IMG/VR virus record: IMGVR_UViG_2684622619_000009
Source: a virus
Lineage: Duplodnaviria; Heunggongvirae; Uroviricota; Caudoviricetes
Length of the DNA stretch: 5,837 nt
Direction: 5' to 3' (one strand)
How positions within the stretch are numbered: position 1 is the first letter of the stretch; every line of letters begins with the position of its first letter. The notes below the pieces were generated by a model, which saw nothing but the letters and a program-made list of their open reading frames with translations, had not been told where the DNA came from and did not search any database. Below, piece after piece: positions 73 to 4,951 of this stretch. The position numbers and the translations under genes are program-made.

Positions 73-1128
73 ATGGCTAATGCCTGGCTCAGATTGTGGC
101 ATGACATGCCAAATGACCCCAAGTGGCGAACGATTGCCAGGGTATCAGGACAGCCAATCGCAACAGTGATGGCAGTGTATATCCATCTTCTGGTGAGCGC
201 GTCACGAAATGTCACGACATGTCACGGCGTGTCACTACGTGGTCACATTGATGTCACGACGGAAGATTTAGCAAGTGCGCTTGATGTGACGGAAGACGTA
301 ATTGATTCAATTTTGCATGCAATGCAGGGGCGGGTTCTGGATGGTGACCTTATTTCCGGATGGGAAAAACGTCAGGTGCTGAAAGAGGACAATGGTAACG
401 TTTCGCAAACGGCAAAATCCCCGGCAGAGCGCAAGAGAGCGCAGCGGGAGCGGGAAAAGCTGCGGAAACATAATGCTGATTGTCACGATGAGTCACGACG
501 TGTCACGCATCTGTCACGACAAGTCACGACAGATAAAGATACAGATAAAGATACAGATAAAGATACAGATACAGAATTAAACCCCACACATAACGCGCGC
601 GAGAGTATTCCGACCAGTGAGTCGAATGGTGCGCCGTTGCAGACAGCCGAACCTGAATACCTGGACGGCCTGAGCGAACCGATCGGGAAATTTTCGATGA
701 CTACTGTCTGGCAGCCGTCGCCGGATTTTCGACAACGGGCAGCAGTGTGGGGTATGGCTCTGCCTGAGCCGGAATTTACACCTGCTGAGCTTGCCGCATT
801 CCGGGATTACTGGATGGCGGAGGGGAAGGTTTTCACGCAGGTTCAGTGGGAGCAGAAATTTGCCCGCCACGTGCAGCACGTCAGGGCACAGGTAAAACCA
901 GTCAGCAAGGGGGGAAGCCATGCAGCATCAGGTGGCACGGCATCACGGGCAGTTCAGGAAATCCGGGCTGCACGCGAACAGTGGGAACGTGACAACGGAT
1001 TTATCAGCAACGGAAACGGCCTGGAAGCTGTGGGAGCTCATGGGGGAGGTGTATTCGAACCGCTGGACTCAGAAGAACGGGGCCGCACCTTCGAAGCTCT
1101 GGATTGCCCAGATTGGTGCGATGACTGA
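73..1128 (+). CDS. Phage replication initiator (lambda O-like replisome organizer with DnaT-like C-terminal region)
   Basis: Long ORF (track 67..1128); ATG at 73 sits 6 nt after AAGAGG (61-66), so 73 is preferred over GTG 67. Iteron clusters and an AT-rich repeat lie inside the coding sequence as in lambda O/ori. The C-terminal segment (TTVWQPSPDF...FTPAELAAFRDYWMAEGKVF...WEQKF) resembles DnaT-like domains of phage replication proteins, from memory. Followed directly by a P-like gene. Confidence 0.75.
   Translation: MANAWLRLWHDMPNDPKWRTIARVSGQPIATVMAVYIHLLVSASRNVTTCHGVSLRGHIDVTTEDLASALDVTEDVIDSILHAMQGRVLDGDLISGWEKRQVLKEDNGNVSQTAKSPAERKRAQREREKLRKHNADCHDESRRVTHLSRQVTTDKDTDKDTDKDTDTELNPTHNARESIPTSESNGAPLQTAEPEYLDGLSEPIGKFSMTTVWQPSPDFRQRAAVWGMALPEPEFTPAELAAFRDYWMAEGKVFTQVQWEQKFARHVQHVRAQVKPVSKGGSHAASGGTASRAVQEIRAAREQWERDNGFISNGNGLEAVGAHGGGVFEPLDSEERGRTFEALDCPDWCDD
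201..262. repeat. Iteron cluster A: six GTCAC(G)-core repeats phased at ~10-11 bp
   Basis: GTCAC starts at 201, 211, 221, 231, 242 and 253, all in direct orientation at helical-turn spacing; an inverted GTGAC copy follows at 286-290. Located inside the O-like CDS. Confidence 0.6.
482..530. repeat. Iteron cluster B: five GTCACG repeats phased at ~10-11 bp (putative initiator binding sites of the origin)
   Basis: GTCACG at 482, 492, 502, 513 and 523, directly abutting the AT-rich tandem repeat; this iterons-then-AT-rich layout matches lambda-type origins. Confidence 0.6.
531..575. repeat. 12-bp tandem repeat AGATAAAGATAC x3 plus partial copy (AT-rich, putative DNA unwinding element)
   Basis: Perfect copies at 531-542, 543-554 and 555-566, then AGATAC AGA. 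Encodes a (DKDT)n linker in the O-like protein. Confidence 0.7.
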
Positions 1129-3521: not shown

Positions 3522-4079
3522 ATGAGCACTATTACCAGAGAACGCGCGGAGATTAAATCATACATCACAGGCTTCCTGAGCGACTCGGCGCACGATAACA
3601 AGTCTTCAGACAGCCTGCTGGCTAATGTGTTTCGTATCGCGCTGGCATCACTGGAAGCAGAGCCGATAGCAATGGTAGTGCCTGATGAAATGGATTTGCT
3701 TACCTGCCATCTCGACGGTGTAACTAAAACATATGCTGATGGCTGGAACGCCTGCCGCGTCGCCATGCTTCAGGCCGGAAACTTTCGGGAAAATAAGAAT
3801 TCGTCAACCAACAATTTTCGGGAAATCTCGGAAACGTCAACCAGATCTCCGATAACTCTGGATGGCTGGATAAGCTGTACTGAGCGAATGCCTGAAAAGA
3901 GCCAGAACGTGCTTATTTCGATGAATATCGATAGCGAGGCTGGGCCATTAATATATTCCGCACGCTATCTCGGAGGCACGTTCCGGCGCGGAGGTATAGC
4001 AGTTAGTCCGGGTAATGATCTTAGGCAAGCAACCCACTGGATGTCGCTACCAGAACCGCCGCAGGAGGTGAATCAATGA
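3522..4079 (+). CDS. DUF551-like prophage protein (185 aa)
   Basis: ATG 3522 is 8 nt after AAGGA (3509-3513). The C-terminal ~70 aa (DGWISCTERMPE...ATHWMSLPEPPQ) matches my recollection of the DUF551 signature (W-I-s...LPe start, THWMPLPEPP end). Not verified by search. Confidence 0.7.
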   Translation: MSTITRERAEIKSYITGFLSDSAHDNKSSDSLLANVFRIALASLEAEPIAMVVPDEMDLLTCHLDGVTKTYADGWNACRVAMLQAGNFRENKNSSTNNFREISETSTRSPITLDGWISCTERMPEKSQNVLISMNIDSEAGPLIYSARYLGGTFRRGGIAVSPGNDLRQATHWMSLPEPPQEVNQ

Positions 4080-4159
4080 CCTGGCCTGAAGCATTCACAA
4101 CGGTAGGAATTGCGATGGCGGTGGCGCTGGTGGTGTATTCGATTTGCCGCTGGGGATAA
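4076..4159 (+). CDS. Small hydrophobic peptide (27 aa), translationally coupled to the DUF551-like gene; absent from the supplied ORF track
   Basis: ATG 4076 overlaps the upstream TGA (ATGA) and lies 7 nt after GGAGG (4064-4068). Product MTWPEAFTTVGIAMAVALVVYSICRWG is a single predicted transmembrane helix. Stop TAA 4157-4159. Confidence 0.4.
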   Translation: MTWPEAFTTVGIAMAVALVVYSICRWG

Positions 4160-4165
4160 AAACGG

Positions 4166-4194
4166 TTTGCGGGAAAAGGATAGTTAAGTAGAAT
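4166..4194 (+). promoter_or_regulatory. Putative sigma70 promoter of the hok mRNA
   Basis: -35-like TTTGCG/TTGCGG (4166-4172), 16-17 bp spacer, -10 TAGAAT (4189-4194); the predicted transcript start near 4201 coincides with the conserved hok 5' leader sequence. Confidence 0.4.
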
Positions 4195-4198
4195 TGCT

Positions 4199-4226
4199 GC
4201 GGGTGCTTGAGGCTATCTGCCTCGGG
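4199..4226 (+). promoter_or_regulatory. hok mRNA 5' leader: stem-loop GAGGC-TATCT-GCCTC and the 5' partner of the fold-back pairing
   Basis: GCGGGTGCTTGAGG (4199-4212) is complementary to CCTCAACGCACCCGC (4492-4506) with one bulge; hairpin at 4209-4223. The layout resembles the 5' end of plasmid R1 hok mRNA as I recall it. Confidence 0.5.
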
Positions 4227-4243
4227 CATGAACACCAACGGCA

Positions 4244-4319
4244 NNNNNNNNNNNNNNNNNNNNNNNNNNNNNNNNNNNNNNNNNNNNNNNNNNNNNNNNN
4301 NNNNNNNNNNNNNNNNNNN
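4244..4319. other. Run of 76 N (masked or unresolved sequence) inside the hok locus
   Basis: Directly visible. It interrupts the hok leader and hides the start of the hok reading frame. Confidence 0.99.
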
Positions 4320-4442
4320 ATCGTCATCTGTTTAACCGTCATAGTGACGGCACTGGTAACGAGGAAAGACCTCTGCGAGGTGCGAATCCGAACCGGTCAG
4401 ACGGAGGTCGCTGTCTTCGTAGACTACGAATCTGAGAAGTAA
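4287..4442 (+). CDS. hok: Hok/Gef family type I toxin (HokC/HokD-like); N-terminal ~11 codons fall inside the N-run
   Basis: Visible translation 4320..4439 is IVICLTVIVTALVTRKDLCEVRIRTGQTEVAVFVDYESEK, stop TAA 4440-4442. It closely matches the Hok/Gef core as I recall HokC/HokD (…ALVTRKDLCEV.IRTGQTEVAVF…). Start 4287 is inferred from a ~51-aa family length and assumes the N-run length is accurate. Confidence 0.8.
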   Translation, partial: XXXXXXXXXXXIVICLTVIVTALVTRKDLCEVRIRTGQTEVAVFVDYESEK

Positions 4443-4449
4443 GAGACCA

Positions 4450-4506
4450 GGCGGGGGAGTAATCTCCCGCCACCTCTGATGTGTCAGGCATCCTCAACGC
4501 ACCCGC
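4450..4506 (+). promoter_or_regulatory. hok mRNA 3' structured region: post-stop hairpin and fold-back-inhibition (fbi) element
   Basis: Hairpin GGCGGGGGAG-TAAT-CTCCCGCC (4450-4471) with no U-tract; 4492-4506 pairs with the 5' leader at 4199-4212. Confidence 0.5.
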
Positions 4507-4561
4507 GCTTTACCATACTGAAAATGCTGTTTGAATGTTCATCTCTGAAAGAGGACTATGA

Positions 4562-4906
4562 ATGAAAAAGGTATTGATTGCAGCACTTATTTCCGGTGTG
4601 TCTTTTGGCGCTTTTGCACAGCAGGGTGGTTTCCAGGGGCCAGAAGCAGAGCGTTCAACAGTAGCGCAGGCAAAAGAACTGAAGGATGATGCATGGGTTA
4701 TCCTTGAAGGGAGCATCGTTAAAAAAGTGGGTGATGAACGTTATGAGTTTCGTGACAATAGCGGGACAATTGTCACGGATATTGATGACAGCGTATGGGC
4801 CGGGCAGAATGTTTCTCCGAAAGACAAAGTAAGAATTGAGGGTGAAATTGATAAAGACCTGAGCAGTGTTGAAGTTGATGTAAAGGCACTGAAATTATTA
4901 AAGTAA
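4562..4906 (+). CDS. YgiW/YdeI (BOF, bacterial OB-fold) family periplasmic protein with N-terminal signal peptide
   Basis: ATG 4562 is 5 nt after GAGGAC (4551-4556). Signal peptide MKKVLIAALISGVSFGAFA, then QGGFQGP and the pattern DDAWV.L.G.IV...Y.F.D.SGTI..DID...W.G..V.PKD.V.I.GE.DKD..SVE.DVK, which fits E. coli/Salmonella YgiW(VisP)/YdeI from memory. Product is 114 aa. Confidence 0.85.
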   Translation: MKKVLIAALISGVSFGAFAQQGGFQGPEAERSTVAQAKELKDDAWVILEGSIVKKVGDERYEFRDNSGTIVTDIDDSVWAGQNVSPKDKVRIEGEIDKDLSSVEVDVKALKLLK

Positions 4907-4922
4907 CCGCCCCTGCTTGTTA

Positions 4923-4951
4923 AGCCCGTCTTACTGACGGGTTTTCTGTTT
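4923..4951 (+). terminator. Rho-independent terminator downstream of the YgiW-family gene
   Basis: Stem CCCGTC (4925-4930), loop TTACT, stem GACGGG (4936-4941), followed by TTTTCTGTTT (4942-4951). Confidence 0.6.

What the first reader, a model, noticed from the sequence alone, without database searches (positions are those of the whole stretch)
4166..4510. hok/sok-type type I toxin-antitoxin locus with intact mRNA architecture, partly hidden by an N-run
Downstream of the N-run the reading frame encodes IVICLTVIVTALVTRKDLCEVRIRTGQTEVAVFVDYESEK*, the hallmark core of Hok/Gef membrane toxins. The hok mRNA regulatory layout is also visible: a 5' leader (GGGTGCTTGAGGCTATCTGCCTC) with a tac-like hairpin, and a 3' element (CCTCAACGCACCCGC, 4492-4506) complementary to the extreme 5' end (4199-4212), as expected for fold-back inhibition. 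A TAGAAT -10 sits 7 nt before the predicted 5' end. The position between nin-like genes and a DUF968-like gene parallels the hokD-rem-ydfU arrangement of the E. coli Qin prophage, but the flanking genes here differ.
Basis: partly seen in the sequence, partly recalled or inferred. Interest (0 to 1): 0.7.

Follow-up and report, generated by a model that had tools for sequence, protein, structure and literature searches.

The report
Known prophage hok/sok toxin-antitoxin locus

Summary
Window 4320-4442 encodes the C-terminal 40 residues of a Hok/Gef toxin (Pfam PF01848, E 7e-21). The 5' element 4199-4212 pairs with 4492-4506 far better than chance (0 of 5000 shuffles).

The rest of the window is 100% identical to lambdoid prophages in hundreds of E. 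coli O157:H7 and other STEC genomes. In those genomes the 76-N run is replaced by 159 nt, so the N-run does not preserve length. The hidden stretch holds the mok start, the hok start and the whole antisense Sok gene with its promoter.

The reconstructed 390-nt mRNA differs by 2 nt from hokW/mokW/sokW of phage 933W/Sp5. [quoted passage not shown] The Hok protein is identical.

The reconstruction matches Rfam RF01794 (113.5 bits) and folds with the 5'/3' closure (z -6.3). In 26 relatives from six genera the end-pairing and the 5' hairpin are kept in 100% of cells, with compensatory changes.

Caveats: Sok, mok and the hok start are not visible in the window itself; no intrinsic terminator follows fbi; the neighbours are not Nin proteins.

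Verdict: already known, low interest.

The parts
4167..4194 (+). Candidate hok/mok promoter: weak -35 TTGCGG (4167-4172), 16-nt spacer, -10 TAGAAT (4189-4194).
   Evidence: Read directly. It falls below the consensus scan threshold. However, a -10-like hexamer (TAGAAT, TACAAT, TATAAT or TATATT) sits at the same 6-nt distance from the GGG start in relatives from several genera. The transcription start is inferred, not mapped.
4199..4212 (+). tac element at the 5' end of the hok mRNA (GCGGGUGCUUGAGG). The mRNA probably starts at 4201.
   Evidence: The Rfam RF01794 match starts at the equivalent of window 4201. The element pairs with 4492-4506 in the MFE fold. Duplex energy is -26.9 kcal/mol, reached by 0 of 5000 shuffles. 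Compensatory changes occur at helix positions 4, 11 and 12 in 26 relatives.
4209..4223 (+). Short 5' hairpin GAGGC-UAUCU-GCCUC, the counterpart of the metastable hairpin of nascent hok mRNA.
   Evidence: Five pairs are kept in 100% of cells in 26 relatives, with AU, GU and GC variation. The role is taken from the R1 model (PMC9841398).
4213..4243 (+). 5' arm and loop of the long leader hairpin (CUAUCUGC...GGCA); its 3' arm runs into the N-run.
   Evidence: MFE fold of the reconstruction. RNAalifold pairs columns 13-20 with 42-49, with covariation at two pairs.
4244..4319 (.). N-run (76 N) replacing 159 nt in all genomes with identical flanks. The hidden content is: the rest of the leader hairpin; ucb (AAAGCCCC); the Sok-target hairpin; the mok SD (GAGG) and ATG; dcb (AGCCUCUUAC); the hok SD (AAGGAG); and the hok ATG with codons 1-11 (MKQQKAMLIAL). 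On the minus strand it holds the 71-nt Sok RNA and its promoter (TTGCCT-17-TAACCT).
   Evidence: L001 4665-4823 is the same as L002 16244-16402. The spans are 83 nt longer than the window. sokW and mokW coordinates come from the 933W annotation. Sok folds as a hairpin followed by a U-run, z -5.0. The sokW -10 mutagenesis primer YO-421 replaces exactly this TAACCT. Not observable in the window itself.
4320..4442 (+). hok coding sequence, codons 12-51 plus TAA.
   Evidence: Pfam PF01848 E 7e-21. RefSeq WP_000813258.1 'Hok/Gef family protein'. Identical to HokW AAD25480.1. PHROG 251 'MokW-like host killing' E 1e-32.
4439..4445 (+). GUAAGAG across the hok stop codon, predicted to pair with the CUCUUAC (dcb region) hidden in the N-run in the full-length mRNA.
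   Evidence: RNAalifold pairs columns 141-147 with 328-336. These columns are invariant in 26 relatives, so there is no covariation for or against.
4450..4471 (+). 3' UTR stem-loop GGCGGGGGA-GUAA-UCUCCCGCC.
   Evidence: Inverted repeat I2. Conserved helix at columns 342-349/361-368 with some compensatory changes.
4492..4506 (+). fbi (fold-back inhibition) element CCUCAACGCACCCGC.
4562..4944 (+). Neighbour, not part of the TA system proper: a YgiW/YdeI-family OB-fold gene (4562-4906) and the first terminator-like hairpin downstream of hok (4922-4944). A possible 3' end if hok is co-transcribed with it.
   Evidence: NCBIfam NF033674 E 3e-40. Terminator scan and inverted repeat I4. Co-transcription is an inference.

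Best explanation
The region is a hok/mok/sok type I toxin-antitoxin module carried in the early-right (nin-equivalent) region of a non-Stx lambdoid prophage of E. coli O157:H7/STEC. It is a paralog of hokW/mokW/sokW of phage 933W/Sp5.

Shown here:
- A 51-aa Hok/Gef membrane toxin. Its C-terminal 40 aa are visible in the window; the N-terminal 11 aa come from genomes with identical flanks.
- A roughly 390-nt sense RNA whose 5' end (tac) pairs with a 3' element (fbi).
- A conserved 5' hairpin.
- An in-frame upstream mok start.
- A 71-nt antisense Sok gene complementary to the mok SD/AUG region.

Inferred from the R1 and HokW work:
- The full-length mRNA is locked by tac/fbi, with the mok SD sequestered by ucb, so it is translationally silent.
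- Loss of the 3' part lets tac pair with ucb and exposes the mok SD. Translation of mok is coupled to hok.
- Sok, which is unstable and constitutively made, binds the mok initiation region, blocks translation and targets the duplex for RNase III.
- When Sok supply stops, Hok is made, inserts into the inner membrane and depolarises or lyses the cell. For HokW this happens on RecA-dependent prophage induction.

The likely biological role is help with lysis and phage release, and/or prophage retention.
For: - Toxin: Pfam PF01848 E 7e-21 on the visible fragment; RefSeq 'Hok/Gef family protein' at this spot in identical genomes; PHROG 251.
- Source: window flanks are 100% identical to hundreds of O157/STEC genomes, and 526 records are at least 99% identical over the unmasked 431-nt locus.
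- RNA family: Rfam RF01794 113.5 bits against a gathering score of 59, E 4.5e-27, on the reconstruction.
- Folding: MFE -162.6 kcal/mol, z -6.28, closed by the 5'/3' helix.
- End-pairing beats chance: 0 of 5000 shuffles.
- Covariation: the tac/fbi helix and the 5' hairpin are 100% paired in 26 relatives from Escherichia, Shigella, Kluyvera, Photorhabdus, Pantoea and Citrobacter. Compensatory changes are seen (UA<->CG at position 4, GC<->AU at positions 11 and 12). Slid controls pair in only 35-57% of cells.
- Known counterpart: the 933W record annotates mokW, hokW and sokW at 97.4% identity. There are only 2 differences within the mRNA, Hok is identical, and Sok differs by 1 loop base.
- Experiments: the primers of Takada et al. 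match the window. That paper shows HokW toxicity, neutralisation by sokW, the effect of a sokW promoter mutation, inner-membrane localisation and RecA-dependent production (PMC8621323).
- Mechanism model: PMC9841398.
Against: - The antitoxin, mok and the hok start are under the N-run, so their presence in this particular source sequence is inferred, not seen.
- The N-run length (76) does not equal the 159 nt it should hold.
- No intrinsic terminator follows fbi, so the 3' end and the 3'-processing step of the R1 model are unverified for this subtype.
- Neither the hok nor the sok promoter passes a simple sigma-70 consensus scan.
- The NCBIfam Hok models score below their curated cut-offs (53.6 against 73).
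- All functional data are for the 933W/Sp5 copy, not this paralog.
Confidence: 0.92

Rival explanations
1. A decayed or disabled hok remnant. In this source the N-run hides a real deletion or disruption, so the locus lacks Sok, mok or the hok start and is inert, like hokD/relF of E. coli K-12, which has lost its leader.
For: The N-run is 76 nt while the intact sequence is 159 nt. K-12-type genomes match only from the hok coding region onward (query 277-471), which shows that leaderless hokD copies exist. Other relatives have degenerate 5' regions or replaced 3' ends (L007, L008, L015, L027, L040).
Against: Every genome with both flanks that I sampled has the full-length spacer: +83 nt in all the 100%-identical ones, and none has +0. 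Both flanks are 100% identical over 1332 and 864 nt to genomes with an intact locus. The collection is stated to contain masked stretches, so the N-run is most simply a mask or gap of arbitrary length.
Confidence: 0.05
2. The locus is a genuine hok/sok relative, but it does not follow the R1 scheme of a discrete mRNA with 3' trimming. Here hok would be part of a longer transcript that runs into the ygiW-like gene, or is read through from the phage early-right operon. Hok release would then be controlled mainly by sense read-through, which interferes with the convergent sok promoter on induction.
For: No terminator lies between fbi and the ygiW-like gene. The first terminator-like hairpin is at 4922-4944, whereas relatives have a GC hairpin plus T-run right after fbi. 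hok is on the same strand as cro, O, P ... RusA. The published work shows sokW RNA disappearing and HokW appearing only on RecA-dependent induction, with no mechanism given (PMC8621323).
Against: The tac/fbi pairing and all the leader elements are conserved in this subtype, which argues that the classical conformational switch still operates. The northern blot in PMC8621323 detected a discrete full-length hokW mRNA and two shorter species before induction. No transcript mapping is available to me.
Confidence: 0.2
3. The ORF fragment and the 5'/3' complementarity are chance features with no function.
For: None found.
Against: Pfam E 7e-21; 0 of 5000 shuffles; z -6.28; covariation; conservation in all 5426 E. 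coli genomes searched.
Confidence: 0.005

Closest known systems
hokW/mokW/sokW of Stx2 phage 933W and Sakai prophage 5 (GenBank AF125520; Takada et al. 2021, PMC8621323)
   Same: Hok and Mok proteins are identical. The roughly 390-nt mRNA differs at 2 positions and Sok at 1 loop base. The immediate neighbours are the same: the end of a DUF551-type gene and a small hydrophobic ORF upstream, and a ygiW-like gene downstream with no terminator in between.
   Different: The host element and position differ. Here the module sits in the early-right operon of a non-Stx lambdoid prophage, between replication gene P and DUF968/RusA. In 933W it is at the far end of the map next to L0134-L0141. There are eleven substitutions in the upstream small ORF.
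hokD (relF) of E. coli chromosomes / Qin prophage
   Same: 92% protein identity and 92-95% DNA identity over nearly the whole mRNA in many E. coli that carry a full-length hokD. A DUF968 (ydfU-like) gene lies nearby.
   Different: The C-terminus differs (VDYESEK against TAYEPEE). K-12-type hokD lacks the leader, mok and Sok (one search shows a match only from the coding region onward). Many hokD copies have a terminator right after fbi.
hok/sok of plasmid R1 (the prototype)
   Same: Same parts list: tac, metastable hairpin, ucb, mok, dcb, Sok antisense to the mok initiation region, and fbi. Same regulatory logic (PMC9841398).
   Different: Only about 44% protein identity (PMC8621323). The DNA is too diverged for blastn. 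The R1 mRNA ends in its own terminator hairpin. mok is in frame with hok here, 19 codons upstream. I recall the R1 arrangement only as an extensive mok/hok overlap, and did not check it.
hokC/mokC/sokC (gef) of E. coli
   Same: Same family. About 74-75% DNA identity over the mRNA, 78-80% protein identity, and an in-frame mok.
   Different: The Sok-target hairpin is shorter (an 18-nt gap in the alignment). fbi is CUUCAACGCACCC, with G-U pairs.

Membership tests
Hok/Gef toxin family (Pfam PF01848) | Roughly 50-aa peptide matching the HOK_GEF profile above the gathering score | tested here: met
   74 bits against a cut-off of 22, E 7e-21, on the 40 residues visible in the window.
Hok/Gef toxin family (Pfam PF01848) | N-terminal hydrophobic transmembrane stretch followed by the conserved RKDLCEV...TEVAVF core with two Cys | tested here: met
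   LIALIVICLTVIVTALV then TRKDLCEVRIRTGQTEVAVF, aligned to 35 relatives. The first 11 residues come from identical-flank genomes.
Hok/Gef toxin family (NCBIfam NF007279 Hok family toxin) | Score above the curated cut-off of the NCBIfam subfamily model | tested here: not met
   53.6 bits against a cut-off of 73. This model is built on a narrower subfamily; it explains the generic RefSeq name but does not contradict the Pfam membership.
hok/sok type I toxin-antitoxin locus | 5' (tac) / 3' (fbi) end-pairing of the toxin mRNA | tested here: met
   Both elements are present in the window itself. Energy -26.9 kcal/mol, 0 of 5000 shuffles. The helix appears in the MFE fold, with 100% pairing and compensatory changes in 26 relatives.
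hok/sok type I toxin-antitoxin locus | Leader matching the curated RNA family (Rfam RF01794) | tested here: met
   113.5 bits against a gathering score of 59 on the unmasked equivalent, L001 4622-4796. There is no hit in the window because of the N-run.
hok/sok type I toxin-antitoxin locus | Overlapping mok reading frame whose translation is coupled to hok | tested here: inconclusive
   The mok ATG lies 57 nt upstream, in frame, in identical-flank genomes and is annotated as mokW in 933W. It is masked in the window. Coupling itself was not tested.
hok/sok type I toxin-antitoxin locus | Short cis-encoded antisense RNA (Sok) with its own promoter, complementary to the mok SD/AUG | tested here: inconclusive
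   Present in identical-flank genomes. A 71-nt hairpin plus U-run, z -5.0. One nt different from the annotated sokW, whose expression and promoter were shown experimentally (PMC8621323). It lies entirely under the N-run in the window, and its promoter (TTGCCT-17-TAACCT) fails the consensus scan.
hok/sok type I toxin-antitoxin locus | ucb/SD-mok and dcb pairings that allow the closed-to-open switch | tested here: inconclusive
   RNAalifold predicts GCCCC with GAGGC (columns 56-61/101-107, with compensatory changes at 61:101) and CUCUUAC with GUAAGAG (invariant). The switch itself is not testable with these tools.
hok/sok type I toxin-antitoxin locus | Own intrinsic terminator after fbi, defining the full-length mRNA that is then trimmed at the 3' end | tested here: not met
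   No terminator-like site lies between 4506 and 4922. Relatives do have one. This is a feature of the prototype rather than a strict criterion for the family.
hok/sok type I toxin-antitoxin locus | Toxin kills or arrests cells, and the antisense RNA neutralises it | not testable with these tools
   Shown for the identical HokW protein and for the sokW RNA, which differs by 1 nt (PMC8621323).

The most novel reading that the evidence does not exclude
In this hokW-type subfamily the toxin mRNA has lost its own terminator, and the module lies in sense orientation inside a phage early operon. On prophage induction, antiterminated read-through would run through the locus, silence the convergent sok promoter by transcriptional interference, and supply hok-sense RNA. 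Hok release would then be wired to induction rather than to loss of the element. This would explain mechanistically the published but unexplained RecA-dependent disappearance of sokW. A related point: Sok from this copy differs from SokW by one loop base, so it could cross-protect against HokW in native O157 strains.
Probability: 0.2. Interest if true: 0.4.

Novelty: already known. Interest (0 to 1): 0.1.

Why it matters
It matters little as a discovery. The locus is annotated in RefSeq and GenBank, belongs to Pfam, Rfam and PHROG families, and its near-identical twin has been characterised experimentally.

It has some practical value in three respects:
- O157/STEC genomes carry several near-identical hok/sok copies (median 4, up to 12 hok-like places per E. 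coli genome). Their Sok RNAs may cross-neutralise, which affects how single-locus deletion phenotypes should be read.
- This subtype lacks a terminator after fbi and lies inside a phage operon, which offers a testable route to explain how prophage induction triggers Hok.
- The case shows that an N-run in such windows can be shorter than the sequence it replaces. Distances and reading frames across an N-run should therefore not be trusted.

Tried and rejected
- Rfam on the window itself gave only a sub-threshold snoRNA chance hit. The hok leader is masked, so I searched the unmasked equivalent instead.
- The sigma-70 and terminator consensus scan found nothing in the locus. I kept the promoters on positional conservation and published mutagenesis, and I report the missing terminator as a real difference.
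- MAFFT put the outer half of fbi out of register between E. coli-type sequences (bulged C) and Photorhabdus-type sequences (no bulge). I counted that half separately in Python with the bulge removed, and used the count of structure pairs only for the in-register helices.
- The own-versus-cross duplex energy control was only mildly discriminating (-19.6 against -17.6 kcal/mol), because most positions are invariant. The per-position pair table is the informative result.
- The first attempt to read L002 in Python failed (file not yet present). I used L001 and read L002 with get_sequence instead.
- I considered and rejected that the N-run hides a true 76-nt variant; none was seen in 60 records spread down the ranking.
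- I did not run structure prediction or the large protein searches; the identity was already settled.

Full report
**1. What is in the window**

Direct reading confirms every coordinate in the finding.
- The N-run is 4244-4319, 76 N.
- From 4320 the frame reads IVICLTVIVTALVTRKDLCEVRIRTGQTEVAVFVDYESEK, with TAA at 4440-4442.
- GGGTGCTTGAGGCTATCTGCCTC begins at 4201.
- TAGAAT is at 4189-4194.
- CCTCAACGCACCCGC is at 4492-4506. It is the complement of GCGGGTGCTTGAGG (4199-4212) apart from one bulged C.

The 40-residue fragment alone hits Pfam HOK_GEF (PF01848) at E 7e-21, 74 bits against a gathering score of 22. The 5' 14-mer forms a -26.9 kcal/mol duplex with the 3' UTR. Shuffles of that UTR gave -14.4 +/- 2.2 kcal/mol, and none of 5000 reached the observed value. 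No other site in the window pairs as well.

**2. Where the window comes from, and what the N-run hides**

The non-N sequence is 100% identical to a lambdoid prophage present in hundreds of complete E. coli genomes, mostly O157:H7 and other STEC. 360 genomes cover at least 80% of the window.

In all listed full-length matches the genomic span is 5920 nt for the 5837-nt window. In two genomes read base by base, the 76 N are replaced by the same 159 nt. Across 60 records spread down the ranking, every hit that spans both flanks has roughly 60-84 nt more than the window (one three-piece hit has far more) and none has +0. The N-run is therefore a mask or gap of arbitrary length. The true tac-to-fbi distance is about 390 nt, which fits my recollection of roughly 400 nt for the R1 hok mRNA.

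The hidden 159 nt contain:
- the 3' arm of the leader hairpin;
- AAAGCCCC (ucb);
- a long hairpin that is the Sok target;
- the mok SD (GAGG) and ATG;
- AGCCUCUUAC (dcb);
- the hok SD (AAGGAG);
- the hok ATG with codons 1-11.

mok starts 57 nt upstream of hok, in the same frame, giving MLNTCRLASYVPKGKEKQA followed by Hok. On the minus strand lies a 71-nt RNA, GUUCAGCAUGGAUUGAGCCUCAG...GGGGCUUUU. It is complementary to the mok SD/AUG and forms a hairpin followed by a U-run (z -5.0). It is preceded by TTGCCT-17-TAACCT.

RefSeq annotates the 51-aa product as WP_000813258.1 'Hok/Gef family protein'.

**3. Tests of the RNA architecture**

Rfam finds nothing in the window. On the unmasked equivalent, RF01794 ('sok') matches at 113.5 bits against a gathering score of 59, E 4.5e-27, starting exactly at the equivalent of window 4201. 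That model lies on the hok-sense strand, so it describes the hok leader that contains the Sok target.

The reconstructed 393-nt RNA folds at -162.6 kcal/mol (shuffles -121.6 +/- 6.5, z -6.28). GGGUGCUUGAGG closes onto CCUCAA(C)GCACCC.

I fetched 47 related loci from species-representative genomes and aligned 26 non-redundant mRNAs from Escherichia, Shigella, Kluyvera, Photorhabdus, Pantoea, Citrobacter and a MAG.
- RNAalifold keeps the end helix.
- Position 4 is U-A in 16 sequences, C-G in 9 and U-G in 1.
- Position 12 is G-C in 17 and A-U in 9.
- Position 11 is G-C in 18, G-U in 7 and A-U in 1.
- On the named structure (inner end helix plus the short 5' hairpin GAGGC/GCCUC), 100% of 286 cells pair. 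With the 3' partners slid by 1-3 columns, only 35-57% pair. 0 of 500 shuffles reach the observed covariation score.

Positions 11 and 12 co-vary with both fbi and the hairpin's 3' arm. That is the behaviour expected of a tac element that switches partners, as described for the hok family (model summarised in PMC9841398).

RNAalifold also predicts GCCCC pairing with the mok SD (with compensatory changes) and CUCUUAC pairing with GUAAGAG across the hok stop codon (invariant).

**4. Identity with a known, tested system**

The phage collection gives phage 933W (AF125520) at 97.4% identity over 619 nt. Its record annotates mokW, hokW and 'SokW antisense RNA'. VT2-Sakai (Sp5) calls the protein a 'gef homolog'.

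Of the 16 differences, only two fall inside the mRNA: one in the loop of the Sok-target hairpin and one in the 3' UTR. Hok and Mok are identical, and Sok differs by one loop base.

Takada et al. 2021 (PMC8621323) showed for hokW-sokW of Sp5 that:
- HokW arrests growth;
- sokW expressed from its own promoter neutralises it;
- mutating the sokW -10 abolishes protection;
- RNase III and Hfq contribute partially;
- after mitomycin C, sokW RNA disappears;
- HokW then appears in the inner membrane in a RecA-dependent way;
- deleting the locus halves phage release.

Their primers match the window and the reconstruction. YO-352 shows exactly the one 3' UTR difference. YO-421 replaces AGGTTAG, the complement of the TAACCT -10 that I had inferred. 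PHROG 251 'MokW-like host killing' hits at E 1e-32.

The window therefore holds a paralog of hokW/mokW/sokW in another O157 prophage. Homologs occur in all 5426 E. coli genomes searched, with a median of 4 and up to 12 places per genome. Most are annotated hokD (92-95% DNA identity) or mokC (about 75%).

**5. How it most likely works**

Shown here: the toxin domain, the end-pairing, the 5' hairpin, and (in identical-flank genomes) the mok frame and the Sok gene.

Inferred from the R1 and HokW literature:
- The full-length RNA is closed by tac/fbi, with the mok SD sequestered.
- Removal of the 3' part lets tac pair with ucb and frees the mok SD.
- mok translation drives hok translation.
- Sok binds the mok initiation region, and the duplex is cleaved by RNase III.
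- When Sok is no longer replenished, Hok is made and permeabilises the inner membrane.

The biological role (phage release, prophage retention or phage exclusion) is not decided by my data. The only direct evidence, from the twin locus, favours assistance to lysis on induction.

**6.

- No intrinsic terminator follows fbi. The sequence diverges from relatives right after GCACCCGC, where they carry ACCCGCTTCGGCGGGTTTT. The first terminator-like hairpin on this strand is at 4922-4944, after the ygiW-like gene at 4562-4906. 933W shares this arrangement. The 3' end of this subtype is therefore unknown, and co-transcription with the ygiW-like gene is possible.
- The locus lies in sense orientation within the cro-O-P...RusA gene string. 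Early-operon read-through on induction could therefore both supply sense RNA and interfere with the convergent sok promoter. This is a hypothesis only.
- The upstream neighbours are DUF4014 and DUF551 proteins, not Nin proteins. A DUF968 (ydfU-like) gene and RusA lie downstream.
- NCBIfam's Hok models score below their cut-offs, which explains the generic RefSeq name.

**7. Verdict**

The feature is an already known, annotated and experimentally characterised kind of element. Novelty: already known. Interest: 0.1.

The residual uncertainty, about 5%, is whether this particular source sequence carries the intact 159 nt under the N-run.

Noticed in passing
window 4076-4159 (+): An unannotated 27-codon ORF encoding a hydrophobic peptide, MTWPEAFTTVGIAMAVALVVYSICRWG. 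Its ATG overlaps the stop of the DUF551 gene (ATGA). It stays an ORF of the same length in phage 933W despite 11 nucleotide changes (MTWPEAFANVGTVMAVVLVVYSICRWR). It may be a small membrane protein just upstream of the hok promoter. No PHROG hit.
   Followed up: partly
window 4506-4944 (+): No intrinsic terminator lies between fbi and the ygiW-like gene. The first terminator-like hairpin (AAGCCCGTC...GACGGGTTT plus a T-rich tail) is at 4922-4944. Related hok loci have a terminator immediately after fbi. This suggests a recombination junction right after fbi and possible hok-ygiW co-transcription.
   Followed up: partly
window 4244-4319: The 76-N run replaces 159 nt in every genome with identical flanks, so N-runs in these windows do not preserve length or reading frame.
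   Followed up: yes
window 201-246, 482-530 and 529-575 (+): Inside the DnaT-like/O-like replication gene (67-1128) there are 10-nt tandem repeats, GTCACGAC(A/G)T, in two clusters, and a 12-nt repeat, ACAGATAAAGAT x3.9, which encodes TDKDTDKDTDKD. These are candidate origin iterons, as in lambda O.
   Followed up: no
L001 4622-4796 (equivalent to window 4201 through the N-run): Rfam RF01794, named 'sok antitoxin', matches the hok-sense strand from the mRNA 5' end to the hok AUG. It therefore models the hok leader rather than the Sok RNA strand.
   Followed up: partly
L014 (Acinetobacter idrijaensis, 275-bp contig) and L022 (Xanthomonas pisi, 431-bp contig): Hok genes 91-100% identical to the E. 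coli protein sit on tiny contigs of unrelated genera. This is most likely E. coli or phage contamination in those assemblies.
   Followed up: no
L001 1299-3291: In strain PV15-279 the same prophage is truncated by an IS1203 insertion next to an integrase fragment. The replication region is removed but the hok-ygiW-DUF968 block is kept intact.
   Followed up: no
L026-L042 (Photorhabdus spp.): Photorhabdus genomes carry many hok loci per genome, each with a perfectly matched tac/fbi variant (GGGCGCUUGAGA with UCUCAAGCGCCC, no bulge) and a much shorter Sok-target hairpin.
   Followed up: partly
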